Below are positions 3 to 44,346 of a stretch of 64,000 nt of DNA, piece after piece. The translations under genes were made by a program, and so were the position numbers. The stretch comes from Polyangiales bacterium (GTDB taxonomy: Bacteria; Myxococcota_A; Polyangia; Polyangiales; Ga0077539). Position 1 is the first letter of the stretch. Each line of letters opens with the position of its first letter. The stretch lies in the NCBI GenBank assembly GCA_046351535.1, contig JAXLYG010000005.1, positions 293,334-357,333 on the forward strand, given 5' to 3'. The notes under the pieces are model-generated. The model saw only the letters and a program-made list of their open reading frames with translations. It was not told the origin of the DNA and made no database searches.

Positions 3-1937
3 AAGCAGAAGGGCATCACGATCACCTCGGCGGCCACCACCGCGCCGTGGACCGTGCGCGACGGCCTCTTCGCGGGGGTCGAGCATCAGCTCACGCTCAT
101 CGACACGCCCGGCCACGTCGACTTCACCATCGAGGTCGAGCGGTCGCTGCGCGTGCTCGACGGCGCCGTGGCCGTGTTCGACGCCTCGCAGGGCGTCGAG
201 CCGCAGAGCGAGACCGTGTGGCGACAGGCCGATCGGTACGGCGTCCCTCGCGTGGCGTTCATCAACAAGATGGACAAGCTGGGCGCGGACTTCGCCATGT
301 CGGTGCGCTCCATCGTGGAGCGCCTCGGCGCCGACGCGCTGCCCGTTCAGCTCCCGCTCGGCGAAGGCAACGAGCACCGCGGCGTCGTGGATCTCATCCG
401 TCGCGTGGCCTACGTGTTCGAAGGCGACCCCACGGGCAGGACCTTCGAAACCGTGGCCGTGCCCGAGGCGATGATCCCCGAGGTCGAGGCCGCGCGCGCG
501 AGGCTCGTCGAGCGCTGCGCCGAGCTCGACGCGACGCTCACTGACAAGTACCTGTCAGAGGGCGCCGCGGCGATCACGGAGCCCGAGCTCGAACGCGCCC
601 TCCGCGTCGGAACGCTCCGCCGCGAGGTGGTGCCCGTGCTCTGCGGCTCTGCGTACAAGAAGCGCGGGGTGCAGATGCTCCTCGACGCGGTGGTGAAGTA
701 CCTCCCGTCGCCCGCCGACGTGCGGCCGGTGGAAGGGCTCACCCCCGCGGGCGAGACCGTCACGCGCGCGCCCGACGATGATGAATCGCTGTGCGCGCTG
801 GCCTTCAAGCTCGTGACGGGACAGAGCGCCGGCGCGCTCACCTTCGTGCGCGTGTACGCCGGTCGCCTCGCGCCGGGCATGCAGGTCTGGAACGCCTCCC
901 GCGGTCGCAGAGAGCGCGTGGGGCGTCTGGTTCGCATGCACGCCGCGGCGATGACCGAGGTGCCGTGCGCGTACGCGGGCGACATCGTGGCGGCCGTGGG
1001 TCTGAGGGACGTTCGCACCGGCGACACGCTCTCGGACCCCGACCGCCCCGTGAGCCTCGGATCGATCACGGTGCCCGAGGCCGTGGTGACGCTGGCCATC
1101 GAGGCGAAGGCCGCGGGCGAGACCGACCGTCTCTCTGCGGCGCTCGCGAAGATGTCCGTCGAAGACCCGTCGTTGCGCGTCGGCGTCGACGACGAGACCG
1201 GGCAGACCCTGCTCCGCGGCGTGGGTGAGCTGCACCTCGAGATCGTGGTCGAGCGGCTTCGAAGCGAGCACCGCGTCGAGGCCCGCACGGGTCGTCCTCG
1301 CGTGGCCTTTCGCGAGGCCCTCGTGGGAACGGCGCGCGTCGAGCACACGCTGTCGCGTCAGAACGGCGGCGTCGGGCTCTATGCGCGCGTGGTGATCGAG
1401 GTCTCGCCCGCGCCGCGCGACGCGGGGCTGGTGTTCGAAGACCTGACCCGCGGCGGCGTCGTCACCGCGGAGTACGCGCAGGCCGTCCGTCGCGGCGTCG
1501 CGGGCGCCATGTCGAAGGGCCTCCGCGGCGGTCGCCCCGTGGTCGACGCGCAGGTGAAGCTCGTCGACGGCGCGATGCACGCCGTGGATTCGAGCGCGAT
1601 GGCCTTCGAGCTCGCGGGCTCGATGGCGTTTCAGGAGGCCGCGCTCGAAGCGGGCCTCGCGGTGCTCGAGCCCGTGATGTCCGTCGAGGTCGTCACGCCC
1701 GAGGTCCATCTCGGTGAGGCGCTCGGGTCCATTCAGTCACGTCGCGGCACGGTGCGCGACGTGAGCGCGCGCGGCAACGCGTCGGTGGTCGACGCCGACG
1801 TCCCGCTGGCGGCGCTGTTCGGTTACGTGGGCGACCTGCGCGGTCGCACCCACGGCCGCGCGTCTGCGTCGATGCGCTTCTCGCGCTACGAGCTCGTCCC
1901 CGCGGCGATCGAGCGCGAGGTGCTCGCGTCGGCGTAG
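3..1937 (+). CDS. fusA: Elongation factor G paralog (translational GTPase), 5' end outside window
   Basis: Frame 3 reads KQKGITITSAATT...LIDTPGHVDFTIEVERSLRVLDGAV from the first base, giving the G1-G3 GTPase motifs and EF-G domains II-V. The ORF track shows only the part after an internal Met at 54. Stop TAG at 1935-1937. Divergent from canonical EF-G, so probably an EF-G2 paralog. Confidence 0.85.
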   Translation, partial: KQKGITITSAATTAPWTVRDGLFAGVEHQLTLIDTPGHVDFTIEVERSLRVLDGAVAVFDASQGVEPQSETVWRQADRYGVPRVAFINKMDKLGADFAMSVRSIVERLGADALPVQLPLGEGNEHRGVVDLIRRVAYVFEGDPTGRTFETVAVPEAMIPEVEAARARLVERCAELDATLTDKYLSEGAAAITEPELERALRVGTLRREVVPVLCGSAYKKRGVQMLLDAVVKYLPSPADVRPVEGLTPAGETVTRAPDDDESLCALAFKLVTGQSAGALTFVRVYAGRLAPGMQVWNASRGRRERVGRLVRMHAAAMTEVPCAYAGDIVAAVGLRDVRTGDTLSDPDRPVSLGSITVPEAVVTLAIEAKAAGETDRLSAALAKMSVEDPSLRVGVDDETGQTLLRGVGELHLEIVVERLRSEHRVEARTGRPRVAFREALVGTARVEHTLSRQNGGVGLYARVVIEVSPAPRDAGLVFEDLTRGGVVTAEYAQAVRRGVAGAMSKGLRGGRPVVDAQVKLVDGAMHAVDSSAMAFELAGSMAFQEAALEAGLAVLEPVMSVEVVTPEVHLGEALGSIQSRRGTVRDVSARGNASVVDADVPLAALFGYVGDLRGRTHGRASASMRFSRYELVPAAIEREVLASA

Positions 1938-1980
1938 CGCCTCCCCTTCCCCATCCTGCCCACAAGCAGTCCCCCAGCGC

Positions 1981-2848
1981 CTCCGCTCACGCGTCGCCCG
2001 CGTGGGCCTTGTAGCGCTGCGCGATCTCCGCGGCCGTGCGCAGGGTGGTACCCCTCACCGCCCGCTTCCGCGCGCCCTTTCCCCGCCAGCGCCCGCAAGG
2101 GCTGCGTCGCGGTGATCGTCGGCCGACCGCGTGGCGGACGCGCGGCGCCACCGCTTCCGTCGCGCGCGCCCTTGCCCCGCGTGAGTCTGACCGCCATTGG
2201 GGAGTTGACAGCGCCAGACGCTTCCCGTCGCGCCTGGGGTTCGGCCCGCGTGAGAGGGACGCGCGTGACGCGCCCAGGGCGATACGCGCGTGACGCGCCC
2301 GGGCGATACGCGCGTGACGCGCCCAGGGCGATACGCGCGTGAGGCGCCCAGGGCGATACGCGCGTGACGCGCCCAGGGTTCGCCCCCAAGGGATGTACAC
2401 GATCGGGGGCTCAGCCTGGGCTATGACGAGGCACGGATCACCCTCTTCGAGGGTTCAGCAGAGAGAGCCTCGCCATGCCTTCTGAACCGGTCGAAGACCG
2501 GTGATCCGTGCCTTGATGAAGCCCAGGCCGAGCCCCCGATCGCGTACATCCCTTGGGGGGCGAGCCCTGGGCGCGTCACGCGCGTATCGCCCTGGGCGCG
2601 TCACGCGCGTCCCTCTCACGCGGGCCGAACCCCAGGCGCGACGGGAAGCGTCTGGCGCTGTCAACTCCCCAATGGCGGTCAGACTCGACTGGCGGGGAAA
2701 GGGCGCGCGGAAGCGGGGTGAGGGGTACCACCCTGCGCGCCGCCGCAACCTCGCGCGCCGAACCCCAGGCGATCCCCGTCGAGCACCACCGCCTCCGCTC
2801 ACGCGTCGCCCGCGTGGGCCTTGTAGCGCTGCGCGATCTCCGCGGCCG
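1981..2848. repeat. Complex palindromic repeat region made of segments A, B, C, D, a centre, D', B', E and A
   Basis: A direct repeat of a 63-bp gene 3' end lies at 1981-2043 and 2783-2848. Inverted arms at 2044-2090 vs 2690-2735 and at 2184-2395 vs 2560-2690 are near-exact reverse complements. The centre (2396-2560) is itself an extended palindrome. Arm copy number of an internal 25-bp repeat differs (about 4.5 vs 2). Confidence 0.8.
2266..2395. repeat. Tandem 25-bp repeat (gcgcgtgacgcgcccagggcgatac), about 4.5 copies; two inverted copies at 2566-2615
   Basis: Read directly from the sequence. Each unit contains the near-palindrome gcgcgtgacgcgc. Confidence 0.85.
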
Positions 2849-3275
2849 TGCGCAGCACGAACTCCGACGCGTCGGCGTGCACCATGAGCTGCAACCCCGG
2901 CATCAGCGTCACGTGCACCCAGCGCTCGCCTGTCACGCCCTCGGCGCGCGCCACCGCCGCCACGGGAGCCTCCGCGGGCTTCGTCGTCGGCGGGAGCAGC
3001 GCCTTCAGCGCGGCGTCGCTCGCGCCTCGCACCTTCGGAACGATCACGTCGAAGCGCATCCCGGCGGCGCGCATCTGCGCGATCGCACGCACCTGAAGCA
3101 CCGCGCGCGGGGAGTAGAAGGTGTTCACCCCGTGGTCCTCGGCGCGCTCGACGAGGCCCGCCTCGATCCACTTGCGCAGCGTGCGGTCCTTGATGTTGCC
3201 CAGGCGGCAGAGCGGACGCGTGCGCATCCATCCTTCGGGCGGCGCGGGGAGCTTCGGAGGCGGTCGTCTCGTCAT
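2799..3275 (-). CDS. MerR-family HTH transcriptional regulator (small, about 158 aa)
   Basis: The N-terminal segment LCRLGNIKDRTLRKWIEAGLV followed by YSPRAVLQVRAIAQMRAAGMRFDVI fits the MerR HTH plus wing pattern. The last 19 codons are duplicated as a fragment at 1981-2043. Confidence 0.6.
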   Translation of the reverse strand: MTRRPPPKLPAPPEGWMRTRPLCRLGNIKDRTLRKWIEAGLVERAEDHGVNTFYSPRAVLQVRAIAQMRAAGMRFDVIVPKVRGASDAALKALLPPTTKPAEAPVAAVARAEGVTGERWVHVTLMPGLQLMVHADASEFVLRTAAEIAQRYKAHAGDA

Positions 3276-3330
3276 CGGGTGCGCCGAAGCGTCTCAAGAC
3301 CCCGGCACCGAATCAACAAGACCACGGTAA

Positions 3331-3520
3331 TGATCGCCCTCCGTACGGCCCCGAATGACACACATTGCGGCATCGGAGGCCCTCCATACGGCCCCGAGTC
3401 ACGTACCAGGGCCGGATGGAGGGCTTCGGTCCGGCCCCGTTGGCTGCGCGTACGGCAATGGAGACCCTCCGTACGGCCCCGAAACCGTTTCGGTGCTGGA
3501 CCGAAAGGCTCCCCACGGCC
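3331..3520. repeat. Degenerate tandem repeat array, about 5 copies of a roughly 44-bp unit with conserved core ccctccgtacggccccga
   Basis: Core copies at about 3335, 3378 and 3467, with diverged copies between. The array is intergenic, between the asparaginase stop and the MerR-like gene start. Confidence 0.6.
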
Positions 3521-3536
3521 CCGCTTCGCGTTGCGG

Positions 3537-4526
3537 TCAGGCTTCTCCGGCCCACGGGGCCGTGAAGGCGTCTCTCGCGGCGTCGACGCGGGCTCCCGTG
3601 GCGCGTCCGAGGGCCACCATGAGCTTCGCGAGGGCCGCTTCGGAGGTCATCGTGCCCGCGCCGATCGCGCCCGCGTGGGCCGCAGCGGAGCCTCCCTGAT
3701 AGCGCGAGAGGTCGACGGCGCCGCGCGCGCACTGGCTCGCGATCACCACGGGGATGTCTCGCTCCGTGGCCTCTTCGATCACGGGGACCAGCGAGTTCTC
3801 GAGGTGCGGGACGTTGCCTGCGCCGAAGGCTTCGAGCACCACACCACGGACGCCCGTTCGAAGCGCGCCCGCGAGGAGCCTCGGGTCGAGGCCGGGGAAG
3901 ACGCGCGCCGCCAGCACGCGCGGCTCGATGCGTCGGTCGAAGGGAACGCGCGTGCGCGGAGGGAGCACGTGGGCGGCGATCTCGACGGTGACCCCGAGCT
4001 CGACGAGGGGCGCGCACGAGGGCGTGCCGAAGGCGTTCATGCCCCACGCGTCGAGCTTGGTCGCGCGGCAGCCGCGGAGGAGCTTCGAACCGAAGGCGAT
4101 CCCCACTTCGGGGACGGGCATCGTCGCGAGCATGCACGCGTCGACGAGGTTGGCGCGCGCGTCGGTGCGCACCTCGACGAGCGGACGCTGCGCGCCCGTG
4201 AGCACCACCGGGCGGTCGAGGCCCGGGAGCAGGAACGCCAGGGCGCTCGCGGTGTAGGCCATCGTGTCGGTGCCGTGCACCACCACCACGCCGTCGTAGC
4301 TCGGGAGCGCGTCGTGGACGACGGCCGCGAGCTCGACCCAGTGGTGCGGCTGCATGTCCGACGAGTCGAGGTTGAAGAGGATCCGACTCTCGATCTCGGC
4401 GACCTTGCGGAGCACGGGGAGCTCGGCGAGGAGGTCCGAGGTGTACACGTCGGGGGCGAGGGGAGACGGGTCTCCGCCTCGCATCATGAGCGTCCCTCCG
4501 GTGTGGAGGATGAGCACGTTCTTCAC
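3537..4526 (-). CDS. ansA: L-asparaginase, type I family
   Basis: N-terminal ILHTGGTLMM (the TGGT active-site motif), DGVVVVHGTDTMAYTASAL and 329 aa length are typical of cytoplasmic asparaginase. Confidence 0.85.
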   Translation of the reverse strand: MKNVLILHTGGTLMMRGGDPSPLAPDVYTSDLLAELPVLRKVAEIESRILFNLDSSDMQPHHWVELAAVVHDALPSYDGVVVVHGTDTMAYTASALAFLLPGLDRPVVLTGAQRPLVEVRTDARANLVDACMLATMPVPEVGIAFGSKLLRGCRATKLDAWGMNAFGTPSCAPLVELGVTVEIAAHVLPPRTRVPFDRRIEPRVLAARVFPGLDPRLLAGALRTGVRGVVLEAFGAGNVPHLENSLVPVIEEATERDIPVVIASQCARGAVDLSRYQGGSAAAHAGAIGAGTMTSEAALAKLMVALGRATGARVDAARDAFTAPWAGEA

Positions 4527-4542
4527 GGCGCGTTCTGTGGGG

Positions 4543-5520
4543 CTATGCCGGGTCTTCGACGGCGCGCACGGTCTCTCGCAGCGAGCGCAGCGGGCGGTAG
4601 CCCATGAGCGTGCGCGCGCGCTTGTCGTCGACCATGCACACGTACCGGATGTGATCGAGCTCCGGCGCGGGGAAGCTCGAGGGGCGGTACCTGAAGAGGT
4701 CCGTGAGGAGCTTGCGGCCGAAGGTGTGCGGCACGGGGAGGATGGGCCGCCCGAGCATCTTGATGATGCGCGTGAGGGGCGCGGGCTCGGGGCCCGCGAT
4801 GTTGAAGATCCCTCGCACGCCGGGCTGGAGCGCGAGCTCGATGGCGCGCGTCACGTCGGACTGGTGCACCACCTGGATCATCGGGTCGAAGCCCATGAGC
4901 GTGGGCACCACCGGGAGGCGCAGGTAGTTGCTCGGCGCGTTGCGCACGCTCCCGAGGATGTGCGTCGGCCGGAGGATCACGGTCTCGGTCTTCGTCGCGC
5001 GCCAGAAGAAGCTCTGCGCGAGCATGTCGATCTCGATGAGGTCGCGGATCTCGCTGAACTCCTGGCTCCCGAGGAGCGGCGCCTCCTCCGTGATGAACTG
5101 CGGGTTGTCGGGGCGCGGGCCGTAGATGTTGGCGCTCGACAGCACGACGAGCTTCTCGACGCCGTACTGGGCCATGAACTCCAGCATCTTGCCGAAGCCG
5201 ACGACGTTCCACGTGTGGTGGTCGTGGGCGCTGGCGCGGGGGTCGTGCATGACGCCGAGGTGCACGACGGCGCGCACGTTGCCGTGGCGAAACACGTCGC
5301 GGAGCTTCTTTCGCCGCACGTCGAACTGGTGGTGCACCACGTCGCGGGGCTTGTCCGCGAAGTCTCGCCGGTCGACGCCGATCACCGTCGCGCGGCGGTG
5401 GAGCACGCGACACACCTGCTTGCCCAGGCGCCCGACGATGCCCGTGATGACGATGGAGCCCTCATCGCTCGCGGGTCGCGCGCTGCGCGGTGCGGTCTCG
5501 TCGTGGACGCTCTCGCTCAT
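4543..5520 (-). CDS. NAD-dependent epimerase/dehydratase (extended SDR family)
   Basis: Rossmann motif ITGIVGRLG near the N-terminus, with the length and architecture of an SDR epimerase. Confidence 0.7.
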   Translation of the reverse strand: MSESVHDETAPRSARPASDEGSIVITGIVGRLGKQVCRVLHRRATVIGVDRRDFADKPRDVVHHQFDVRRKKLRDVFRHGNVRAVVHLGVMHDPRASAHDHHTWNVVGFGKMLEFMAQYGVEKLVVLSSANIYGPRPDNPQFITEEAPLLGSQEFSEIRDLIEIDMLAQSFFWRATKTETVILRPTHILGSVRNAPSNYLRLPVVPTLMGFDPMIQVVHQSDVTRAIELALQPGVRGIFNIAGPEPAPLTRIIKMLGRPILPVPHTFGRKLLTDLFRYRPSSFPAPELDHIRYVCMVDDKRARTLMGYRPLRSLRETVRAVEDPA

Positions 5521-5560: not shown

Positions 5561-6982
5561 TCAGCGCGGCGCGAACGCGACGCTGCGGTACGTGGTGTTG
5601 AGCGGCGCCGTGGCGACGGCCGTGAGCGACGCGGTGGCCGACGTGACCGAGACGTCGAGGCGGAGCAGCCGCGCGCGCGACTCCGTGGTGGTGGCGTAGA
5701 GCACGTAGTCCGAGCCGTTGGTGCGCCCCGTGAGGCCGCGGAGGCCGTTCGTGAGGCCCGTCACGGTGAGGGGCTGCATGGTCCAGGTGCCGCCCACGAG
5801 GCGCCAGTAGAGCAGTCCGCCGCCCGAGGCGGGGGTGCGGTCGTCGGCGACGAAGAGCACGTCGGCGGCGCCGTTTCCGTCGCGGTCGAAGGCCGCCACG
5901 CCGTAGGGCGAGAGGGTCATCGTGGTGGGGAAGCCCGGCGCCACCGAGAGCGTCGCGCCCGCCGCGCGAGGCAGCGGCGAGGTGGTGAACACGCCCGAGC
6001 CCGCGGGCGTGGAGCCCGTGACGAAGAGCTGCGTGCCGAAGGCCGAGACCCAGCGGTACACGTTGGTCGTGAGCAGGGGGATGCCCGCCGTCGCGCCGCC
6101 GTAGGGCGTGTAGAAGAGGTTCCCGTCGCTCACGAGCGCGTGGATCGACCAGAACTCGCTGCCGTCGACGGTGGCGACGGAGCGCATCGCGAGGCGGTCG
6201 GCCATGGCGCCGACGGTGGTGCGCGTGTCGACCACGCCCGCGGCGTTGATGCGCGCGATCACGCGCGGTCCGCTCGTGGAGTTGGGCGTCGTCGTGCCGA
6301 CGGGGATGCCGTAGCCGCCGAGCACCACGTAGGCGCCGTTGACCGAGCGGAAGAGCGCCCCCTCGGCCGTCGCGTTGCCCGTGATCGTGAGGATGTTGTT
6401 GGCCCCCGAAGGCGCCGTGGGGAGCGCGATGGGCGTGCCCACGGGCGTCGCCGTCGCGCCGTTGTAGATCTCGATGTTCACGGGCGCCGCCGTGGCCGCG
6501 AGCGAGGCGACGCCGTCTCCGACGCGGAGCACCCAGATCGTGTCGTTCCCCGTGACGGGCACGTCGGGGGTGACGGGCACGTCGGGCGTGACGGGCACAT
6601 CGGGCGTGACCGGAACGTCGGGCCTCACGGGCACATCGGGCGCCACGGGGATGTCGGGCGTCACGGGGATGTCCATCGTGACGGGCACATCGGGCGTGAC
6701 CGGAACGTCGGGCACGACGGGCACATCCATCGTGACGGGAACGTCCATCGCGACGGGCGCATCGGGGGTGACGGGCGCGTCGGGGGTGACGGGCGCGTCG
6801 GGCGTGACGGGGGTGTCGGTGGCGACGGGGACGTCGTCGGTGACGGGCGTGTCGGGCGTCGAGGGCGTGTCGTTGACCGCGGCGTCGTCGGTGGGCGTCG
6901 AGCCTCCACCCGTGTTGCCGCGCGCGGAGCACGCCATCGAGAGAAGCATCGCGAGAAGGAGGGGCTGCGGTCGGAAGCTCAT
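5561..6982 (-). CDS. Secreted lipoprotein with a Pro/Thr/Asp-rich tandem linker (PVTPDV x about 20) and an unknown C-terminal domain
   Basis: Signal peptide and lipobox (LLSMACSARG). An 18-nt tandem coding repeat at about 6500-6850 encodes the repeated D(T/V/A)PVTPD units. Confidence 0.6.
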   Translation of the reverse strand: MSFRPQPLLLAMLLSMACSARGNTGGGSTPTDDAAVNDTPSTPDTPVTDDVPVATDTPVTPDAPVTPDAPVTPDAPVAMDVPVTMDVPVVPDVPVTPDVPVTMDIPVTPDIPVAPDVPVRPDVPVTPDVPVTPDVPVTPDVPVTGNDTIWVLRVGDGVASLAATAAPVNIEIYNGATATPVGTPIALPTAPSGANNILTITGNATAEGALFRSVNGAYVVLGGYGIPVGTTTPNSTSGPRVIARINAAGVVDTRTTVGAMADRLAMRSVATVDGSEFWSIHALVSDGNLFYTPYGGATAGIPLLTTNVYRWVSAFGTQLFVTGSTPAGSGVFTTSPLPRAAGATLSVAPGFPTTMTLSPYGVAAFDRDGNGAADVLFVADDRTPASGGGLLYWRLVGGTWTMQPLTVTGLTNGLRGLTGRTNGSDYVLYATTTESRARLLRLDVSVTSATASLTAVATAPLNTTYRSVAFAPR

Positions 6983-22720: not shown

Positions 22721-23020
22721 GTGCTCGCGCGCCACGCCCTCCTCGCCTCGCTCGCCGCGCTCGTCGCGTGCTCGTCCACGCAGCGCGTTCGAAGCGCCGG
22801 GGCGTACCGCTTTCAGTGCGAGCCCGTCGACGCCCACGTCATCGTCGACGAAGACGACCTGGGGCCCTGCGCGATCTGGTCGTCGCGGTGGCTCGGGCTC
22901 CCCGCGGGCCCCCACCGCGTGCGCATCTACCGCGAGGGATGGCTCCCGCAAGAGTCCGACGTCACCCCCAACGGCGCGCGCGTGACCGTCACCGCGCGGC
23001 TCCGACGCGTCCCCGACTGA
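22721..23020 (+). CDS. Small lipoprotein (about 99 aa)
   Basis: GTG start. ALLASLAALVACSS lipobox. Confidence 0.4.
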   Translation: MLARHALLASLAALVACSSTQRVRSAGAYRFQCEPVDAHVIVDEDDLGPCAIWSSRWLGLPAGPHRVRIYREGWLPQESDVTPNGARVTVTARLRRVPD

Positions 23021-23043
23021 AACCGCCACGCAGAGAGAAGCTG

Positions 23044-24588
23044 ATGCGCTCCACGAAGCACCGCCACGTCGCCCTCGCCACGTCGCTCGCCGCCTCGCTC
23101 GCCTCGACGGCGGCCCTCTCGCAAGACCTCCAGTGCCGCACCTGCGAAGACTGCTCGCAGCTCCTCTCGACGCCCAACGCGCGCGTCGAGCTCGGCACCG
23201 ACCTCGCGCTCCACGGCGCGGGGCCGTGCGTGGTGATCCGCGGCGAGGGCGCTCGCTTCAACGGCCACGGACACGTCATCCTCGCGCAGCCCGCGGGCGG
23301 CGTGGCGCTGCGCGTCGAGGCCGCGAACGCCGTCGCGCGACACCTCAGGGTCACGGGCGCCGACGTGGGCGTCGAGCTCGTGGGCGCCCGCGACGCGACC
23401 CTCTACGACATCACCGCGGAGGCTCGCGCGAAGGGCTTTTCCGTCGAGCGATCGCCGAACGCGCGCTTCGAACGCGTGCACGCGTCGGGCGGTCGCGTGG
23501 GCCTCTCGTTCGGCGCCTCGGCCAACGGGAGCTGCGACGCGAACACCACGATGCAGAGCCCCGGCGCAGTGGTGCTGCGCTCGACCTTCGAACGTGCCAC
23601 GACGGGCATCGCAGCGTGTGACGCGCGCCCCGTGCTCACGGGAAACACCGTGTCGCGCAACGCCGTGGGCGTCGTGCTCGGAGACCCCGCGGCGGGGACG
23701 GGCCCTGGCGGCGCGGCGCCCTACGACGCGTGCGCGTGCGCGCCGACGGTCGAGGCGGTGCATCCCGGCACGGTGGCGGTGTACAGCTCGGGCTGCGGGA
23801 GCTGCCAGGTGCACGAGGGCTGGATGCCCGGTCTGCGACGGCGCGGCGCGGACATCGTGGTGCGCGAGAGCGGCCCCGACACGCAGTCCGCGCAGGAGCG
23901 CTTCGACCGCTTCGGCTGGCGCTGCATGCCCGGCGTGATGGACTCGCTCGGAATCCCCGGCTGCGTGCCCAACTACGCGTGCGTGACGAGCGGAGCTTTT
24001 TCGAAGCGCCGCGAAGGCGACGCGCAGCTCATGGTCGACGTGCCGATCAACGGCGCAGACGACGCGTTCCGCTTCGCGAGCGAGTGCGCCGAGGGGGCGC
24101 GCGGACGCTACGCCCGCGGCGCCCGCTGCGTGCTCCAGGGGCTCGCGGACAACCGCATCTGCGGCAACCGCACGCTCGACCTCAGCGCCGTGGGCGGTGC
24201 TTCACGCGCGGGCGGCGCGCGCGACCGCTGCGATCACGCCGAAGGGTGGAGCGAGGGAGGTCACGCAGGCTGCGCGCTCACCTGCGACGAGGCTGTTCCA
24301 TCGACCGAGGCGCCTCCGCCGAGGGAGCCCGCGCTGATCGAGCCGCAGGCAGGTCCGTCACCGAACGCGATCGTGCCCGACACGACGCAGCCTCCGGCGA
24401 CGCCGCTCGTGCTGCCGACCGCCGCGCCTCCGAGCCCCGCGGGGAGCGTCGCGCCTGCGGTGAGAACGCCGACGCGCACAAGCCCCGCTGCGCAGCGCGC
24501 GCCCTCGGCCGACGAGCCGCTCTACATCGTGGGCGGCATCGTGGCGGCGGTGCTCGTCGGCGCGTGGGCGTTTCGAAAGAAGGGGTGA
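23044..24588 (+). CDS. Secreted protein, probably with a right-handed parallel beta-helix, and a C-terminal TM anchor
   Basis: Signal peptide. Repetitive G/V/A-rich segments with regularly spaced Asn/Gly. A C-terminal hydrophobic helix (IVGGIVAAVLVGAWAF) followed by RKKG. Confidence 0.4.
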   Translation: MRSTKHRHVALATSLAASLASTAALSQDLQCRTCEDCSQLLSTPNARVELGTDLALHGAGPCVVIRGEGARFNGHGHVILAQPAGGVALRVEAANAVARHLRVTGADVGVELVGARDATLYDITAEARAKGFSVERSPNARFERVHASGGRVGLSFGASANGSCDANTTMQSPGAVVLRSTFERATTGIAACDARPVLTGNTVSRNAVGVVLGDPAAGTGPGGAAPYDACACAPTVEAVHPGTVAVYSSGCGSCQVHEGWMPGLRRRGADIVVRESGPDTQSAQERFDRFGWRCMPGVMDSLGIPGCVPNYACVTSGAFSKRREGDAQLMVDVPINGADDAFRFASECAEGARGRYARGARCVLQGLADNRICGNRTLDLSAVGGASRAGGARDRCDHAEGWSEGGHAGCALTCDEAVPSTEAPPPREPALIEPQAGPSPNAIVPDTTQPPATPLVLPTAAPPSPAGSVAPAVRTPTRTSPAAQRAPSADEPLYIVGGIVAAVLVGAWAFRKKG

Positions 24589-24998
24589 CCCTCACCCCGT
24601 CCCTCTCCCGCGAAGCGGGAGAGGGTGCCTGTTGGTAGCTGCCATGCCCTCACCCTGCCCTCCCGGCAGAGCCGGGAGAGGGTGTCAGCGCATCGACGAC
24701 GAAGCGCTCGGTGGTGCCGACGAAGCGCTCGGTGGCGGTGCCGACGAAGCGCTCGGTGGCGGTGCCGACGAAGCGCTCGGTGGCGGTGCCGACGAAGCGC
24801 TCGGTGGCGGTGCCGACGAAGCGCTCGGTGACGGTGCTGACGAAGCGCTCGGTAACGGTGCTGACGAGGATCGACGTCACGCTTCGTCGCCTCGACACCC
24901 TCTCCCGGCTCTGCCGGGAGAGGGCCGGGGTGAGGGCATGGCAGCTACCAACAGGCACCCTCTCCCGCTTCGCGGGAGAGGGACGGGGTGAGGGTCAC
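24584..24998. repeat. Composite element: a perfect roughly 105-bp inverted repeat flanking about 7 tandem 24-bp repeats, between convergent stop codons
   Basis: The left arm (24584-24685) is the exact reverse complement of the right arm (24893-24998), and both include the GGTGA of the flanking genes' stops. Each arm holds two internal hairpins (ccctctcccgcgaagcgggagaggg; ccctcccggcagagccgggagaggg). The centre, at 24700-24870, is tandem copies of gacgaagcgctcggtggcggtgcc. Confidence 0.85.
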
Positions 24999-25996
24999 CA
25001 CGCGAGCACGATCTTGCCGAGCGTGGCGTTGCGCTCCATGAGCGCGTGCGCGTCGCGGATCTGCGACATGGGCATCACCGCGTCGACGACGGCCTTGAGC
25101 TTCCCGCGCGCGAAGAGCGGCAGCACGGAGCGCGAGAACTCCCGCGCGACGCGGGCCTTCTCTTCGAGCGGACGCGCGCGCAGCGTCGTGCCGAAGATCC
25201 GCAGGCGCTTCATGAGAATCGGCGCGAGGGGCACCTCGGCGTGCATTCCGCCCATGAACGCGATGAGCACGAGGCGTCCGAGGGGCGCCATCGCCTGGAG
25301 GTTGTCTTCGAGGTACGAAGCTCCGACGGGGTCGAGCACCACGTCGACGCCGTGGCCGTGCGTGAGGCGGTCGACCTCGGCGGCGAAGCGTCCGTCCTTC
25401 ACGACGACGCCGTCGGCGAAGCCGAGCTTGAGGATGCGATCGAGCTTGTCGGCCGTGCGCACCGTGGCGAGCGCGCGCACCGAGGCCGCGCGACAGAGCT
25501 GCGCCGCGGCCGTTCCCACCCCGCTCGCGGCGGCGTGAATGAGGGCCGTCTCGCCCATCACCGCCTGGGCCTGGTTGAAGAGCGCGTCCCACGCCGTGAG
25601 GAACACCTCGGGGATCGCCGCGGCTTCGGAGAAGGGCATGCCCTCGGGCACGGGCATGAGCTCCCGCGCGTGCGCGACGACGCGCGTACACATCGCGCCG
25701 CCGCCCGTGATCGCCATGACCCTGTCGCCGACGGACCAGTCTCGCACGCCCTCGCCGAGCGCCGTGACGGTGCCCGCGAACTCGAGGCCCGGCACGTCGG
25801 CGGGATAGCCCGGCGGCGCGGGGTAGTAGCCCTTTCTCTGCATGATGTCCGCGCGGTTGAGGCCCGCCGTGGCGACCTCGACGAGCACCTCGCCGGGCCC
25901 CGGGGCGCGCACGGGCACCTCTCCGATCTCGAGCACGTCGAGGTCACCAGACTCACGGATGCGTACGGCCGTCGCGGTCTCGCTCATGGTGCGCAA
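24995..25996 (-). CDS. qor: NADPH:quinone oxidoreductase / zeta-crystallin (MDR superfamily)
   Basis: N-terminal GroES-like domain. Cofactor site AAASGVGTAA. About 330 aa. Confidence 0.8.
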   Translation of the reverse strand: MRTMSETATAVRIRESGDLDVLEIGEVPVRAPGPGEVLVEVATAGLNRADIMQRKGYYPAPPGYPADVPGLEFAGTVTALGEGVRDWSVGDRVMAITGGGAMCTRVVAHARELMPVPEGMPFSEAAAIPEVFLTAWDALFNQAQAVMGETALIHAAASGVGTAAAQLCRAASVRALATVRTADKLDRILKLGFADGVVVKDGRFAAEVDRLTHGHGVDVVLDPVGASYLEDNLQAMAPLGRLVLIAFMGGMHAEVPLAPILMKRLRIFGTTLRARPLEEKARVAREFSRSVLPLFARGKLKAVVDAVMPMSQIRDAHALMERNATLGKIVLAW

Positions 25997-30752: not shown

Positions 30753-33677
30753 ATGGAACGCGGAACTACGAGAAGGATGCTCTACGGAGCAGCGCTGGTC
30801 GCGGCGATCGCGGCATGCGCCGGTGACCCCGGCGCCAACGGAACGAGCTGTACGGTCTCGGCGAATAGCGACGGAACCAGCACGATCCGATGCGGCGACG
30901 GGACGACGGCGACCATCCGCAACGGCGCGGACGGAGGCAACGGCACCAACGGCACCAACGGCACCAACGGCACCAACGGGACCAACGGGACCTCGTGCAC
31001 CGTGTCCGCGGACGATGCCGGGACGCGCACCATTTCGTGCACCGATGGCACGAGCGTCCAGGTGAGCAACGGGACCAACGGGACCTCGTGCACCATCACC
31101 ACGGATGCCGACTCGGGGGTTCGCACGATCCGCTGCGCCGACGGGACTAGCACCCGGATCAACGACGGCGCGCCCGGACTCTCGGCTCGCGTTCTCGACC
31201 ATCACGGCTCGCAGTACCTCGCGACGCACGGCGAGTACGCCAACGGCGCGAAGGTGCTCGGACGCGCGACGATCACGGCCGCCACGGCGGACGCCTCGGG
31301 CCGCGTGACGGTGAACTTCCGCGTGACCGACCAGGCCGGAAGGCCCCTCTCCGACGTCGGCGCCATCGCGGCGAACATCGTGAAGCTCGTCCCGGCGCGC
31401 ACCGGCGAGGCTTCGAACCACTGGGTCGCGTACATCTACCGCACGCAGACCGTGTCGGGCACGGGCTCGTGGCCGGCCCCCTCGGGCACCTCGGCGGTGC
31501 AGGCATACCGTGAGAACAACGGCATGCTCACGAACAACCGCGACGGCACGTACCAGTACGTCTTCGCGACGAACCTCTCGACGGCGATGATGGGCACCAC
31601 GCCCATCACGTACGAGCGCAACCGCACGCACCGCGTCTACATCTCGATGGGCGGTCATAGCGGCACGACGGCCGACGCGTACTTCGACTTCGTGCCCGAC
31701 GGCTCGGCGATCACCGAGCGCAGGGACATCGTGCAGACGGCGACCTGCCAGGGCTGCCACAACACGAACGAGTTCCACGGCCACGGCGGCGACCGCCTGA
31801 CCGTCGAGGGCTGCGGGACGTGTCACCTCCCCGGCAACGTCGACCCGCACAGCGGCCGCAGCCTCGACCTCCCCGAGATGATCCACAAGATCCATGCGGG
31901 CGGCGAGCTCCCCTCGGTGCGCGGCGCCGACGGCATCCTCTATGACGACCCCGCGACCACGGTGAACGAGGCGGCCGACAACGGCACCTACGCGATCTGG
32001 GGCAACGCCAACGCGCGCCAGTCGTGGGAGCACGTGGAGTTCCCCGCCGTTCTCGCGAACTGCACCACCTGCCACCGCGGAACCGGCGCGCAGGTCGACA
32101 ACTGGAACTCTCGTCCTTCGCGCGCCGCCTGCGGCTCGTGCCACGACAACCTCAACTTCGCGACGGGCACCAACCACGGCAACGCGACCCTGATGCCCGG
32201 ACCGCAGCCCGATGACGGCTCGTGCACCACCTGCCACCGCGCCACCGCGGGCATCGCCCCCATCGTCGCAGGCCACGACTTCGTGCGCTCGAACCCGCGG
32301 AACATCGCCGAGTTCAACGCGACGCTCTCGATGACGCCGCCGGCCAACGGTCGCTTCTACGTGGCCGGTGAGGCCCCCGTGGTGAGCATCGTGCTCCGCG
32401 ACGCCGTCACCGGCGCGCTCGTCGATCACACCACGCTCAACGAAGACCCCACGGCCGAAGGCTGCCCGACCACGTCGGCGACCTGCCCGCCCCGCGACGG
32501 CCTGCTCCGCACGGCGTCGCTCTTCGTTCAGGGCCCGCGCGCTCACCGCATGCCGGTGCTCACGACGGCCGCGCGCTCGCAGGTCATCGCCCCCGCGGCG
32601 GGCCCCTACAACCTCTCGGGCACCGGCGTCTCGCTCGTCGTGAAGTTCGACGGCGGCGACGACGTGCACACGGTGAACTCCACCGGCGGCGACGTGCTCC
32701 GCATGGGCCTCGTGACCGTTCCGATGACCACCACGGGCTTCGTGAGCGCGGCCGCCGCGACCACCGCCGAAGTGGTGGCGTGGCTCAATCGCGACGCGGC
32801 CTTCGCGGCGCGCGGCATCGCCTGGGATGAGGGCGGCAGGGTCGCCATCCGCAGCCGCAGCCTCGGCAACATCCACTCGGTGCAGCTCCTCGCGAGCGCC
32901 GCGACGACCGCGGTCTTCGGCGGCGACGTGACCGTGCACATGCCCGCGGGCTTCACGTCGGGCAACACCGTGAGCCGCCGCACGGTGGCCGCGAACAACG
33001 ACCCCAAGGCGTCGTGGAGCGCGGGCTCGATCAACTACCAGCTCGACGCCGTCGACGACCTCGAGCCGGGCACCTACGTGGTCTCCATCGAGTTCGCGGA
33101 CCGCGGCCGCGTCGACGCGGTCAACTACGTCACGCCGACCGTGGCGCGCCTGACCTTCCAGGTGAAGACCGCGACGGAGCAGCTCCTCGTCGCGGGCAAC
33201 TGCAACAGCTGCCACCAGAACGCGACGGGCACGGGCTTCGTGCTCGACTACTCGCGTCACAACAAGCAGTTCGACACGGCCGCGCTCGACCAGTGCGGCG
33301 CCTGCCACGACTACCAGCCCCAGGCCGCCACGGGCCTCGCATGGTCGGGCGCGCGCCCCATCTCTCGCCGCGTCCACGCGATCCACTACGGATCGTCGCT
33401 GACCTATCCGCTCGCGGACGTCGACTACTCGAACGGCGACCCGGTGCCCGGGCGCAACTGGAACATCACGTTCCCCCAGGACGTGCGCAACTGCCAGACC
33501 TGCCACCCGTCGAACACGACGAGCGGGACGTGGGCGACGCGTCCGGCGAGGCTGCCCTGCTCGGGCTGCCACGACGCCGACGCTGCGATGGCGCACATGC
33601 GCATCCAGACCTTCGACCCGACCCCTGCCGATCCGTGGAGCGGTGACGAGCAGGAGTCCTGTCAGACCTGCCACTGA
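30753..33677 (+). CDS. Decaheme c-type cytochrome lipoprotein (974 aa) with N-terminal Gly-X-Y (GTN)8 repeat and 3 Cys-pair modules
   Basis: Lipobox IAACAG. Ten CxxCH motifs (CQGCH, CGTCH, CTTCH, CGSCH, CTTCH, CNSCH, CGACH, CQTCH, CSGCH, CQTCH). RBS aggaga upstream of the ATG. Confidence 0.85.
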   Translation: MERGTTRRMLYGAALVAAIAACAGDPGANGTSCTVSANSDGTSTIRCGDGTTATIRNGADGGNGTNGTNGTNGTNGTNGTSCTVSADDAGTRTISCTDGTSVQVSNGTNGTSCTITTDADSGVRTIRCADGTSTRINDGAPGLSARVLDHHGSQYLATHGEYANGAKVLGRATITAATADASGRVTVNFRVTDQAGRPLSDVGAIAANIVKLVPARTGEASNHWVAYIYRTQTVSGTGSWPAPSGTSAVQAYRENNGMLTNNRDGTYQYVFATNLSTAMMGTTPITYERNRTHRVYISMGGHSGTTADAYFDFVPDGSAITERRDIVQTATCQGCHNTNEFHGHGGDRLTVEGCGTCHLPGNVDPHSGRSLDLPEMIHKIHAGGELPSVRGADGILYDDPATTVNEAADNGTYAIWGNANARQSWEHVEFPAVLANCTTCHRGTGAQVDNWNSRPSRAACGSCHDNLNFATGTNHGNATLMPGPQPDDGSCTTCHRATAGIAPIVAGHDFVRSNPRNIAEFNATLSMTPPANGRFYVAGEAPVVSIVLRDAVTGALVDHTTLNEDPTAEGCPTTSATCPPRDGLLRTASLFVQGPRAHRMPVLTTAARSQVIAPAAGPYNLSGTGVSLVVKFDGGDDVHTVNSTGGDVLRMGLVTVPMTTTGFVSAAAATTAEVVAWLNRDAAFAARGIAWDEGGRVAIRSRSLGNIHSVQLLASAATTAVFGGDVTVHMPAGFTSGNTVSRRTVAANNDPKASWSAGSINYQLDAVDDLEPGTYVVSIEFADRGRVDAVNYVTPTVARLTFQVKTATEQLLVAGNCNSCHQNATGTGFVLDYSRHNKQFDTAALDQCGACHDYQPQAATGLAWSGARPISRRVHAIHYGSSLTYPLADVDYSNGDPVPGRNWNITFPQDVRNCQTCHPSNTTSGTWATRPARLPCSGCHDADAAMAHMRIQTFDPTPADPWSGDEQESCQTCH

Positions 33678-33680
33678 GCC

Positions 33681-34562
33681 ATGAAGCACCTCGCCCTCGC
33701 TCCCCTCTTCGTCTGCGCGGCCTTGTCGCTCTCGTGCAAGGTCGCGCAGCCTCCTCCCGCCACGCCTCATCAACGCGTCGAGGGCGAGGTGATCGCCACG
33801 GTCAACGGGGTCCCGCTCACGCGCCAGGAGCTCCCTCCGAGCGCGCACGGGCAGGGGCCTCGCAGCGCGACGGGACCCGTCGACGCCGACCTCCTCTCAC
33901 GCCTCGTCGAGGACGAGGTGCTCGCGCAGTACGCCACCTCCACGGGTCTCGATCGCGACCCGACGTACCGCGCCGAGCTCGCCCGCGCCGAGGCCGGGTT
34001 CCGCGCGTGGCGGCGCGCGCAGCTCGTCGCCCTCGCCGATCGCGCGCAGTCAAACGGGCTCAACGTCACCGAGGCCGAGGCGCGGAGCTGGTACGAGACC
34101 CACACCGCGCGGGCGCGTGCCGAGGTTCGCGTCGCGCAGATCCTCGTTCGCGACGAGGCCACGGCCAACCAGCTCCTCGCGGAGCTCCGCGCGGGCGCGG
34201 CCTTCGATGACGTCGCCCGCAGGCTCGCGCCCCCGAGCGACGATCCCGCTGCGAAGCCCTGGGAGATGGGCCCGCTGCGCTGGCACCAGCTCCCCGACGC
34301 GTGGCGTGGCCCCGTCGACGCGCTCCAGGTCGGCCAGGTCTCCGCCGTGATCCGCGGACCCAACCGACGCTTCTGGATCGTGAAGCTCCTCGACCGTCGC
34401 GAGAACGCCTCGCTCACGTTCGAGACGACGCGTGACACGATCGTGCAGGTGCTCCGCGACGAGCGCGCCATCGAAGCGCGCGCGCGCCTCCGAGAGACGC
34501 TCCGCCGTGCGGCCCGCGTCGACGTCACCCCGCAGCGCCCCGCCCCCACCGAAACCCGCTGA
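33681..34562 (+). CDS. Parvulin-type peptidyl-prolyl cis-trans isomerase lipoprotein (SurA/PrsA-like)
   Basis: Lipobox LSLSCK. SurA-like N-terminal chaperone region. PpiC domain (EVRVAQILV...WEMGPLRWHQLPDAW...RFWIVK). Confidence 0.7.
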   Translation: MKHLALAPLFVCAALSLSCKVAQPPPATPHQRVEGEVIATVNGVPLTRQELPPSAHGQGPRSATGPVDADLLSRLVEDEVLAQYATSTGLDRDPTYRAELARAEAGFRAWRRAQLVALADRAQSNGLNVTEAEARSWYETHTARARAEVRVAQILVRDEATANQLLAELRAGAAFDDVARRLAPPSDDPAAKPWEMGPLRWHQLPDAWRGPVDALQVGQVSAVIRGPNRRFWIVKLLDRRENASLTFETTRDTIVQVLRDERAIEARARLRETLRRAARVDVTPQRPAPTETR

Positions 34563-36949: not shown

Positions 36950-36960
36950 AGGGGGATGCC

Positions 36961-38435: not shown

Positions 38436-38448
38436 GGGGAATGGCGCG

Positions 38449-44321: not shown

Positions 44322-44346
44322 GACTCCGACGGAGACGTGACTTCCG

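What the first reader, a model, noticed from the sequence alone, without database searches (positions are those of the whole stretch)
1981..2848. An 870-bp complex palindrome with expanding 25-bp repeats and a duplicated gene tail next to the EF-G stop
The layout is A(1981-2043) B C D(2184-2395) centre D'(2560-2690) B'(2690-2735) E A(2783-2848). A is a direct repeat of the last 63 bp of the MerR-like gene. B/B' and D/D' are inverted. C and E are unique. The D arms carry 4.5 versus 2 copies of a 25-bp sub-palindromic repeat. The centre (2396-2560) folds into a long hairpin. Because the arms are unequal it is not a simple fold-back chimera, but it could still be a misassembly. If real, it is a large cruciform-capable element (a REP/MITE-like or replication-slippage hotspot, or a structured ncRNA) lying between fusA and a regulator.
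Basis: seen in the sequence. Interest (0 to 1): 0.5.

Follow-up and report, generated by a model that had tools for sequence, protein, structure and literature searches.

The report
Strain-specific giant DNA hairpin insertion
Between two convergent genes of an uncultured Polyangiales (myxobacterial) genome lies a real, non-coding 812-bp insertion that closely related strains lack; it is a roughly 700-bp nested DNA palindrome plus a duplicated 66-bp gene tail, most likely built up stepwise by replication errors, and it is a curiosity rather than a new kind of genetic system.

Summary
Window 1978-2855 holds a 66-bp perfect direct repeat (70 bp with one mismatch). The repeat is the last 57 nt of the MerR-like ORF plus 9-13 nt of 3' flank. 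It brackets a ~700-bp imperfect palindrome whose arms match at 257 of 267 aligned positions. The palindrome carries 4.8 versus 2 copies of a 25-bp unit and folds as a rod (-435 kcal/mol, z = -34).

Four independent contigs from strains with 99% identical flanks show a clean empty site with 50 bp between the two stop codons. The 812 bp is therefore a real indel. A fifth lineage (L096) carries a homologue of only the inner core at the same junction. A sixth (L001/L002) carries an unrelated palindrome there. A second palindrome with a 24-bp array (E2, 24589-24994) sits exactly between two other convergent stop codons and is absent from relatives.

E1 is non-coding, matches no Rfam family, has no other copy in any collection I could search, and no transposase or integrase gene lies in the window. 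Inside it, an "insert flanked by a direct duplication" occurs three times with different repeat lengths, and the palindrome runs 12/14 nt into the gene tail.

Best reading: a hypervariable quasi-palindrome grown by replication template switching, probably acting as a bidirectional hairpin terminator. It is not a MITE/REP family member and not an RNA gene. Read-level confirmation of the outer arms and the duplication is still needed.

The parts
1938..1977 (.). Native 40-nt spacer after the EF-G paralogue's stop codon (TAG 1935-1937)
   Evidence: Colinear with the empty-site contigs L092-L095 apart from T->A at 1976 and a 1-nt C-run length difference in three of them.
1978..2043 (-). A*L: orphan copy of the MerR-like gene tail (9 nt of 3' flank, stop codon, last 18 codons); left direct repeat
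   Evidence: 66/66 identical to 2790-2855 (69/70 over 1974-2043). Contiguous with the spacer exactly as in the empty haplotype.
2044..2182 (.). Outer left arm: B1 (2044-2089), 59-nt unique block C (2090-2148), and B2 (2149-2182), a diverged direct copy of B1
   Evidence: B1 pairs with 2687-2732. B1/B2 match at 28/34, score 34 against shuffles 16.4 +/- 3.
2183..2258 (.). Left arm segment D
   Evidence: Part of the 121-nt, 99% complementary pair 2183-2303 / 2566-2686.
2259..2378 (.). Left 25-bp tandem array, 4.8 copies of ACGCGCGTGACGCGCCCAGGGCGAT
   Evidence: TRF score 226, 95% matches. The unit is confined to E1.
2379..2560 (.). Inner core of the palindrome (arms 2383-2442 / 2500-2559 at 88%; tip 2443-2499); the oldest layer
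   Evidence: Folds as a single rod, z about -17 on either strand. Positions 2540-2580 and their mirror image are homologous to L096 at the same locus.
2561..2610 (.). Right 25-bp array, 2 copies
2611..2686 (.). Right arm segment D', including TR (2619-2638)
   Evidence: In L096 the homology to E1 ends at TR.
2687..2746 (.). Outer right arm B' (2687-2732) plus g' (2733-2746), which is complementary at 12/14 positions to the end of the gene tail (2030-2043)
   Evidence: The 12/14 match has P about 7e-5 for random 14-mers from the window.
2747..2789 (.). 'E': TR' (2752-2771), a direct copy of TR, plus an 18-nt joint to the gene
   Evidence: TR/TR' match at 19/20, score 35 against 15 +/- 2.6. It sits where the right end of the L096 element sits.
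2790..2855 (-). A*R: functional tail of the MerR-like gene; right direct repeat
   Evidence: Contiguous with ORF 2799-3275. Identical to A*L.
24589..24994 (.). E2: a second element with the same architecture (arms about 103 nt at 97-100%; centre is a 24-bp unit x 7.2 at 24697-24867), lying exactly between the stop codons of convergent genes
   Evidence: -216.6 kcal/mol, z = -26. The site is empty in L085 and L087-L091.

Best explanation
E1 is a real, non-coding, strain-variable compound quasi-palindrome. It occupies an indel hotspot at the stop-to-stop junction of two convergent genes (an EF-G paralogue and a MerR-like regulator) in a Polyangiales genome.

It was probably built in layers, from the inside out:
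- An older inner palindrome, also present at this junction in a lineage about 3% diverged.
- Expansion of a 25-bp unit, from 1 copy in that lineage to 2 and 4.8 copies in the two arms here.
- Symmetric outer arms.
- Three 'insert flanked by a direct duplication' events with duplications of about 31, 20 and 66 nt.

The last and youngest event duplicated the 66-nt gene tail, so the regulator's ORF stayed intact while 746 bp was placed between the two copies.

The inferred mechanism is replication template switching (copy choice or slippage) provoked by hairpin formation. The joint between tail and palindrome lies at a 12/14-nt quasi-homology. That fits either a switch from an 'empty' template into a palindrome-bearing allele, or outward 'perfecting' of the palindrome.

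Because the element reads the same from both sides, its likely effect is a bidirectional hairpin barrier (terminator or insulator) between two genes that otherwise end 50 bp apart. Recombination between the 66-bp repeats would regenerate the empty allele exactly.

What is shown: the structure, the presence/absence polymorphism, the non-coding nature, the lack of other copies, and the nested duplications. What is inferred: the order of events, the template-switch mechanism and the terminator role.
For: Empty site: L092 (ENA activated-sludge assembly) and L093-L095 (three Logan runs), with a MerR-like gene 99.1-99.3% identical in nt, have 50 bp between the stops. They are colinear with window 1900-2043 and 2790-2887. 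The window therefore equals the empty haplotype plus 812 bp.

Independent corroboration of the core: the 102 nt after the stop in L096 align to E1 2540-2580 and to its mirror image (score 56-61 against shuffles 19.5 +/- 3). L096 has one 25-bp unit and no outer arm.

Hotspot: L001/L002 carry an unrelated 58-nt-arm palindrome whose right end abuts the same |CGCCTCCGC.

Same phenomenon elsewhere: E2 was inserted between TGA and TCA of another convergent pair. The site is empty in six relatives' contigs, and a third, different insert sits there in L086.

Template-switch signatures:
- Three nested direct duplications of different length (69/70, 19/20, 28/34), plus a 16-nt tail duplication in L096.
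- The palindrome extends 12/14 nt into the gene tail, P about 7e-5.
- In E2 the host flank changed from TCAGT to TCACC, extending the palindrome into both genes at the cost of a D->G change in the last residue. Quasi-palindrome 'perfecting' by template switching is an established mutational mechanism (PMC7202029).

Identity gradient consistent with layering: centre 88%; B1/B2 82%; TR/TR' 95%; D arms 99%; A* 100%.

Non-coding: GC is 0.72-0.73 at all codon positions, against 0.50/0.78/0.91 in the flanking genes.

Not RNA-selected: wobble-type mismatches split 3 to 2 between the strands, and there is no Rfam hit.

Native composition: E1 GC is 0.727 and the window's is 0.724.
Against: About 200 nt of arm sequence has no detectable source, so pure in-situ growth does not explain where the sequence came from.

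The window's nearest relatives are all empty, while a more distant lineage has the core. This needs either repeated precise loss or transfer of the allele between strains.

The SNPs to the right of the element are not L096-like, so there is no donor tract.

A clean insertion with a perfect flanking repeat that restores the ORF is also what integrase-type integration gives.

The left half of the L096 allele is unseen, so the polarity (growth here or deletion there) is not settled.

No terminator-like U-tract was found, and there are no expression data.

The outer arms and the duplication are seen in only one assembly.
Confidence: 0.5

Rival explanations
1. E1 is a non-autonomous mobile or integrative element mobilised in trans. 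Either it is a foldback/MITE-like transposon, or it is an 812-bp mini-circle that integrates by site-specific (or RecA-mediated Campbell-type) recombination at a 66-bp att identity block covering the 3' end of the MerR-like gene. In the second case the element supplies a replacement tail, as phage 21 and e14 do at icd in E. coli (own knowledge).
For: There is a clean presence/absence polymorphism with an intact empty site. A perfect direct repeat flanks the insert and restores the ORF. The arm sequence is foreign and has no local source. Different elements occupy the same junction in different lineages. E1 and E2 share a terminal motif, CCCTCACC(C)CG.
Against: No second copy was found anywhere: the window, 0.9 Mb of loci, 185,579 representative genomes, JGI metagenomes, IMG/VR exact 21-mers, plasmids and phages, and spurious ORFs among 5.8 billion and 1.84 billion proteins.

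No transposase, integrase or RAYT domain was found in the 33 GC3-called genes plus ORF 22768-24588.

A 66-70-bp repeat is far outside the range of transposase target duplications.

The other occupants of the hotspot (L001, E2) have no flanking repeat, so no common att or target-site-duplication rule holds.

The shared motif is only 11 nt; 2 of 100 shuffles gave as many matches.

The right end (2747-2789) lies outside the inverted repeat.
Confidence: 0.25
2. All or part of E1 is an assembly artefact of the MAG. Candidates are the number of 25-bp units, the outer arms, or the A*L-to-arm joint, for example from fold-back or chimeric long reads or from mixing strain haplotypes.
For: The full structure is seen in only one assembly. 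The source is a metagenome-assembled 712-kb contig. Empty and filled haplotypes co-exist in nature. Short-read assemblies break inside these palindromes (L002, L086 and L096 all end within them). Fold-back artefacts in long reads are documented (PMC12870357, title and abstract only).
Against: The arms are not copies of adjacent genome sequence, and they differ by a 94-bp indel, a ~74-bp indel and 10 substitutions. A fold-back artefact gives near-identical arms.

The inner core is confirmed at the same locus by an unrelated short-read assembly.

No path through a graph of the empty allele plus a spacer-inserted allele creates the 2043|2044 joint.

E2 and the L001 element show that the phenomenon recurs in separate assemblies.
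Confidence: 0.1
3. E1 encodes a large structured non-coding RNA (a rod-like hairpin RNA) or a protein-binding repeat array with a regulatory role for the adjacent regulator.
For: The predicted fold is extreme on either strand. The 25-bp units contain a short dyad, GCGCG-TGA-CGCGC (read directly from the sequence).
Against: There is no Rfam match at E <= 1 apart from a chance lncRNA hit, and none at gathering threshold. No promoter-like site was found. Arm mismatches show no G-U strand bias. The element is absent from strains with 99% identical flanks, so it is dispensable. The fold is explained fully by DNA-level symmetry.
Confidence: 0.04

Closest known systems
Quasi-palindrome / long-palindrome instability and template-switch mutagenesis (Ripley model; E. 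coli studies, PMC7202029, PMC3315005, PMC4245961)
   Same: E1 is an imperfect inverted repeat that forms hairpins. Flanking sequence has been converted towards complementarity (12/14 nt in E1; TCAGT->TCACC in E2). Direct duplications and indels cluster at the hairpin, and copy number in the internal arrays varies.
   Different: The experimental cases involve tens to a few hundred bp and single events. Here a ~700-bp multilayer palindrome persists in a wild chromosome, and part of its sequence has no known template. The source genome's SbcCD status was not examined.
Eukaryotic foldback-type transposons (FB, Galileo; PMC4168063)
   Same: The architecture matches: very long inverted arms containing tandem repeats, unequal arms, and arm extension by repeat expansion and by recruitment of extra sequence.
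   Different: Those are multi-copy elements with 7-9-bp target duplications, and some copies encode a transposase. E1 is single-copy in everything searched, has a 66-70-bp flanking repeat, has no transposase nearby, and is bacterial.
Bacterial REP/REPIN, ERIC and MITE intergenic palindromic repeats (PMC3116915, PMC3733652, PMC3184786)
   Same: They are non-coding, hairpin-forming, located in 3' intergenic regions often between convergent genes, and show presence/absence polymorphism among strains.
   Different: Those families are short (20-300 bp), have tens to hundreds of near-identical copies, carry conserved heads (GTAG/CGTC) or TIRs, and are linked to RAYT or IS transposases. E1, E2 and the L001 and L086 elements are unrelated to one another in sequence, and no further copy of E1 was found (E2 and the other two were compared only with the window and the fetched loci).
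Integrative elements that duplicate the 3' end of their target gene (tRNA- or icd-type att sites; CIME-like integrase-less remnants). Own knowledge.
   Same: A direct repeat covers the stop codon and the last codons, so the gene stays intact. Recombination between the repeats would excise the element precisely.
   Different: E1 has no integrase and no cargo, and its interior is one palindrome. Other occupants of the same junction lack the repeat.

Membership tests
MITE (miniature inverted-repeat transposable element) | Terminal inverted repeats | tested here: met
   Arms pair from 2030/2044 to 2746. However, 43 nt at the right end (2747-2789) lie outside the inverted repeat.
MITE (miniature inverted-repeat transposable element) | Short target-site duplication of fixed length (2-10 bp) | tested here: not met
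   The flanking repeat is 66-70 bp. E2 and the L001 element have none.
MITE (miniature inverted-repeat transposable element) | Multiple related copies in the genome or in relatives | tested here: not met
   No copy was found in the 64-kb window, the 0.9 Mb of loci, the GTDB representatives, JGI metagenomes, IMG/VR, plasmids, phages or the protein collections. The rest of the source MAG could not be searched.
MITE (miniature inverted-repeat transposable element) | A parent IS/transposase sharing the same ends | tested here: inconclusive
   No transposase domain was found in the 33 GC3-called genes plus ORF 22768-24588. The whole genome was not available.
REP / REPIN-RAYT system | Short (20-40 bp) palindromic units with a conserved head, in high copy number, with a RAYT gene | tested here: not met
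   The 25-bp unit occurs only inside E1. No Y1-transposase or RAYT hit was found in the window.
Foldback transposons (FB/Galileo-like) | Long inverted arms containing tandem repeats, with arms of unequal length | tested here: met
   4.8 versus 2 units of 25 bp, and a 94-bp extra block in the left arm.
Foldback transposons (FB/Galileo-like) | 7-9-bp target duplication, multi-copy family, transposase in autonomous copies | tested here: not met
   As for MITE.
Site-specific integrative element (att duplication of a gene's 3' end) | A direct repeat spanning the 3' end of the target gene, with the ORF restored | tested here: met
   A*L and A*R match at 66/66, and the ORF at 2799-3275 is intact.
Site-specific integrative element (att duplication of a gene's 3' end) | An integrase or recombinase in the element or an identifiable cognate; the same att rule for other occupants of the site | tested here: not met
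   E1 has no coding signal. There is no integrase in the window. The L001 element at the same junction has no tail duplication.
Intrinsic (Rho-independent) terminator | A G+C-rich hairpin followed by a U-tract | tested here: not met
   The hairpin is present, but the scan found 0 terminator-like sites in 1800-3600. A hairpin-only barrier function cannot be tested here.
Any described RNA family (Rfam 15) | Covariance-model match at gathering score | tested here: not met
Fold-back / chimeric assembly artefact | Arms nearly identical and derived from adjacent genomic sequence | tested here: not met
   There are 10 mismatches and two large indels, and the arms match nothing nearby.
Fold-back / chimeric assembly artefact | Lack of spanning reads | not testable with these tools
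   No read data were available.

The most novel reading that the evidence does not exclude
Polyangiales genomes may undergo a so far undescribed process that places sequence-unrelated, several-hundred-bp hairpin DNAs, often with internal 24-25-bp tandem arrays, precisely at the stop-to-stop junction of convergent genes. This would be recognition of structure or position rather than of sequence, for example capture of hairpin ssDNA at stalled or converging transcription-replication sites, or a trans-acting recombinase that targets such junctions. E1, E2 and the L001 and L086 inserts would be four independent products. E1's 66-bp duplication would be a by-product.
Probability: 0.12. Interest if true: 0.75.

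Novelty: new variant of a known kind. Interest (0 to 1): 0.4.

Why it matters
Long palindromes are regarded as hazardous for bacterial chromosomes because they form hairpins that are cleaved and provoke rearrangements (PMC3315005, PMC4245961). A ~700-bp nested palindrome that persists in a wild genome is therefore a useful natural case. It shows a layered history, has a population-level empty allele, and has a sister element 22 kb away. It could help in studying how palindromes arise, grow and are tolerated in high-G+C bacteria, and whether they are recruited as two-way transcription barriers where convergent genes nearly abut.

There is also a practical point. Such elements break short-read assemblies: three of the relatives' contigs end inside them. 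They also create spurious ORFs, such as the 137-aa and 684-aa ORFs here, so annotators should recognise them. If E1 is only a one-off slippage product, its wider importance is small.

Tried and rejected
1. Other copies of E1. I tried a blastn of 1901-2900 against the window; a 25-mer search with 3 mismatches; a pseudo-translated left arm as a fuzzy probe on genome contigs and metagenome contigs; exact 21-mers on viral contigs; distant-mode blastn on plasmids and phages; and pseudo-ORF searches in the protein collections. All were negative. The one hit, P0132, is a translated REP array from an unrelated genome.

2. A common family for E1, E2, the L001 element and the L086 insert. A word-7 blastn found nothing beyond the shared flanks. 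The shared CCCTCACCCCG motif is marginal. The CCCTCTCCC...GGGAGAGGG and CCCTCACC...GGTGAGGG hairpin motifs are absent from all 96 fetched loci.

3. RNA gene. Rfam gave nothing at E <= 1 or at gathering score, the promoter/terminator scan was empty, and there is no wobble strand bias. A cloverleaf-like tip that I suspected by eye was not supported; the centre folds as a single rod.

4. Donor-tract test for inter-strain transfer. The SNPs to the right of E1 are not L096-like, so this was uninformative.

5. Orthologous site in the nearest GTDB genome (L005, Polyangiales STL-MYX9). It is not syntenic downstream of EF-G.

6. Metagenome scan for the MerR-like tail with degenerate third codon positions: 0 hits.

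7. Exact look-ups of the window's own proteins failed. The source was identified only through cluster membership.

8. A third candidate repeat region at 52456-52590 turned out to be a repeat inside a coding region.

9. Literature searches for MITEs or comparable palindromes in myxobacteria found nothing relevant.
Full report
**Observation**

The window has 72.4% G+C. Pfam identifies 54-1937 (+) as the C-terminal 627 residues of an EF-G paralogue and 2799-3275 (-) as a MerR_1-type regulator. The two genes converge.

- A 70-nt direct repeat, 1974-2043 = 2786-2855, with one mismatch. The perfect core is 66 nt, 1978-2043 = 2790-2855.
- Inverted pairs 2183-2303/2566-2686 (121 nt, 99%), 2061-2089/2689-2717 (100%), 2030-2059/2717-2746 (93%) and 2383-2442/2500-2559 (88%).

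A global arm-to-arm alignment gives 257 matches and 10 mismatches. The right arm lacks a 94-bp block and about three 25-bp units.

TRF finds 4.8 copies of ACGCGCGTGACGCGCCCAGGGCGAT at 2259-2378, and the right arm has two. The unit occurs nowhere else in the window, where 0 matches are expected by chance.

As single-stranded DNA, 2030-2790 folds at -435 kcal/mol against -211 +/- 6.5 for shuffles. The centre folds as one continuous rod on either strand.

One further correction: the 'unique' blocks C and E each contain a diverged copy of another part of the element.

**Is it an insertion?**

The window's MerR-like protein is identical to NCBI MFO0644860.1, from a Polyangiales MAG with a 712-kb contig. 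Its 90% identity cluster has eight other members.

Contigs for three of them show the state of the locus in other strains:
- L092 (ENA activated-sludge assembly) and L093-L095 (three Logan runs) have a MerR-like gene 99.1-99.3% identical in nt to the window's. They have only 50 bp between the two stop codons.
- Base by base, they are colinear with window 1900-2043 and with window 2790-2887. In the spacer they differ only by T->A at 1976 and, in three of them, by one C in a C-run.

The window is therefore the empty haplotype plus 812 bp (2044-2855, or equivalently 1978-2789). Recombination between the two 66-nt repeats would regenerate the empty allele.

**The junction is a hotspot**

L001/L002 (GCA_052035985.1; gene 96.7% identical) carry an unrelated element at the same place. 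It has 58-nt arms at 93% and no tail duplication.

L096 (gene 96.7% identical) ends 102 nt after the stop, and those 102 nt are homologous to E1's inner core. Its sequence GCGCGTACATCCCTTGGGGGCGAACCCTGGACGCGCGTCGCG aligns to 2540-2580 and to the mirror-image left arm, with scores of 56 and 61 against 19.5 +/- 3 for shuffles.

L096 has a single 25-bp unit. Its homology to E1 ends at CCGAACC...GGCG, which corresponds to window TR at 2619-2638. It is then joined to |CGCCTCCGC, the same nucleotide at which the L001 element and the window's E block end.

The inner palindrome is therefore older than the window's full structure, and it is confirmed by an independent short-read assembly.

**A second element of the same kind**

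An inverted-repeat scan of the whole window found just one other large palindrome, E2 at 24589-24994. It has arms of about 103 nt at 97-100% and a centre made of a 24-bp unit x 7.2. It folds at -216.6 kcal/mol with z = -26.

E2 lies exactly between the TGA of ORF 22768-24588 and the TCA (the minus-strand stop) of a quinone oxidoreductase gene. In relatives with 83-95% identical oxidoreductase, the stops are 1-7 bp apart (...GCGTGGTGA|G|TCAGTCC...). This holds for six contigs. One contig with the same protein as L085 (L086) has a third, different insert starting right after the TGA.

In the window the host flank reads TCACC instead of TCAGT. That extends the palindrome (GGTGA...TCACC) into both genes and changes the neighbour's last residue from D to G.

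**What E1 is not**

*Not coding.* GC is 0.72-0.73 at all three codon positions, against 0.50/0.78/0.91 in the flanking genes. The pseudo-ORFs have no Pfam hits.

*Not a known RNA.* Rfam gave nothing meaningful at E <= 1 in 1500-4000 and nothing at gathering score in the whole window. No promoter-like or terminator-like consensus was found. The five wobble-type arm mismatches split 3 to 2 between the strands. The symmetry is therefore at the DNA level.

*Not a detectable repeat family.* No other copy was found in:
- the window
- 0.9 Mb of fetched loci
- 185,579 species-representative genomes and the JGI metagenomes, probed with a pseudo-translated arm
- IMG/VR, by exact 21-mers
- plasmids and phages
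- spurious ORFs in the protein collections

E1, E2 and the L001 and L086 elements share no significant similarity. They share only an 11-nt terminal motif of marginal significance.

No transposase, integrase or RAYT domain occurs in the 33 GC3-called genes plus ORF 22768-24588.

**Internal anatomy and history**

The pattern 'insert flanked by a direct duplication' occurs three times, with different repeat lengths:
- A* (69/70) around 746 nt
- TR 2619-2638 / TR' 2752-2771 (19/20) around the outer right arm
- B1 2056-2086 / B2 2149-2180 (28/34) around the 59-nt block C

L096 adds a fourth case: a 16-nt copy of its own gene tail lies 15 nt upstream of the original.

A transposase with a fixed stagger, or an att site, would not give repeat lengths of 16, 20, about 31 and 66 nt. 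Slippage or copy-choice events do.

The palindrome also continues 14 nt into the gene tail. Positions 2030-2043 match the complement of 2733-2746 at 12 of 14 positions, with P about 7e-5 for random 14-mers of this window at one pre-specified position. There are two possible readings:
- This quasi-homology guided the switch that created the 2043|2044 joint.
- The flank was 'perfected' afterwards, as in E2.

Both are template-switch reactions of the type established for quasi-palindromes (PMC7202029).

Pairwise identities suggest growth from the inside out: centre 88%, B1/B2 82%, TR/TR' 95%, D arms 99%, A* 100%. Gene conversion between the arms could blur this gradient.

The roughly 10-12% divergence between the window and L096 cores is about what neutral sites would show given 3.3% divergence in the adjacent gene. 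That is compatible with vertical descent of the core and later precise loss in the empty strains. It rests on about 40 nt, so it is weak evidence.

**Mechanism and function**

My best account is that hairpin formation at a palindromic spacer repeatedly stalls replication. The resulting template switches expand the 25-bp array, extend the arms, and duplicate flanking segments. One of these was the 66-nt gene tail, which left the regulator's ORF intact.

A copy-choice event between an empty template and a palindrome-bearing allele would give the observed structure with only one illegitimate joint, at the 12/14 quasi-homology, and one homologous joint. I found no donor SNP tract to confirm this.

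Because the element is symmetric and sits where two genes end 50 bp apart (1-7 bp for E2), a two-way hairpin barrier to read-through transcription is the most plausible effect. This is inference only.

About 200 nt of arm sequence remains of unknown origin. This is the main weakness of a purely local model, and it is why a trans-mobilised or integrated element stays a serious rival (0.25). An artefact is unlikely for the core, but it is not excluded for the outer arms, the unit counts and the duplication (0.1).

**Comparison with known systems**

In how it behaves, E1 is closest to quasi-palindrome and long-palindrome instability. In architecture, it is closest to eukaryotic foldback elements, whose long arms also grow by tandem-repeat expansion and by recruiting extra sequence (PMC4168063).

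It fails the defining tests for MITE, REP/REPIN and foldback membership (copy number, short target duplication, transposase). It also fails those for an integrative element (recombinase, a common att rule).

I rate it a new variant of a known kind, with interest 0.4. The point worth following up is the recurrence of unrelated giant hairpins at convergent stop-to-stop junctions in this lineage.

Noticed in passing
window 24584-24999: E2: a second giant palindrome (arms about 103 nt, centre a 24-bp unit x 7.2) inserted exactly between the stop codons of ORF 22768-24588 (+) and the quinone oxidoreductase gene 24995-25996 (-). It is absent from six relatives' contigs. The host flank is changed from TCAGT to TCACC, which extends the palindrome and alters the neighbour's last residue (D->G).
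   Followed up: yes
L001 10442-10700 (also L002 732-903): An unrelated element with 58-nt arms occupies the same EF-G/MerR-like junction in GCA_052035985.1. A 65-aa ORF was called inside it. The L002 contig breaks in the middle of it.
   Followed up: partly
L086 1956-2183: A third, different insert begins with CCCTCTCCGGGAGC immediately after the oxidoreductase TGA, in a strain whose oxidoreductase is identical to that of the empty-site strains. It contains a 42-nt tandem duplication, and the contig ends inside it.
   Followed up: partly
L096 3787-3888: Besides the E1-core homologue, this allele has a 16-nt direct copy (CTCCGCCCGCGTGGGC) of its own MerR-like tail, 15 nt upstream of the original. 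It is a smaller version of the window's 66-nt tail duplication.
   Followed up: partly
window 3324-3531: Five copies, spaced about 43 bp apart, of a motif around CCCTCCGTACGGCCCCG lie in the intergenic region upstream of the MerR-like gene. The region is 84-94% conserved in L092, L093 and L096 and 74% in L001. It may be an operator or promoter array and is unrelated to E1.
   Followed up: partly
window 30753-47031: A cluster of MtrC/MtrF-like multihaem cytochromes (three ORFs), NrfD and a cytochrome b. It looks like an extracellular-electron-transfer gene set in a Polyangiales MAG.
   Followed up: no
window 55034-57236 and 6551-6893: Long in-frame tandem repeats inside ORFs: 156/312-bp units in a Cys-rich ORF, and 18-bp units encoding a Pro/Val/Thr/Asp-rich repeat (approx. 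PDVPVT) in ORF 5561-6982. Neither ORF has a Pfam hit.
   Followed up: no
window 1987-2400 (-), 2553-4607 (+), 2455-3297 (-): Long spurious ORFs (137, 684 and 280 aa) run through E1 because of the high G+C. The 137-aa ORF ends with the duplicated 17-residue regulator tail and could be mis-annotated as a gene.
   Followed up: yes
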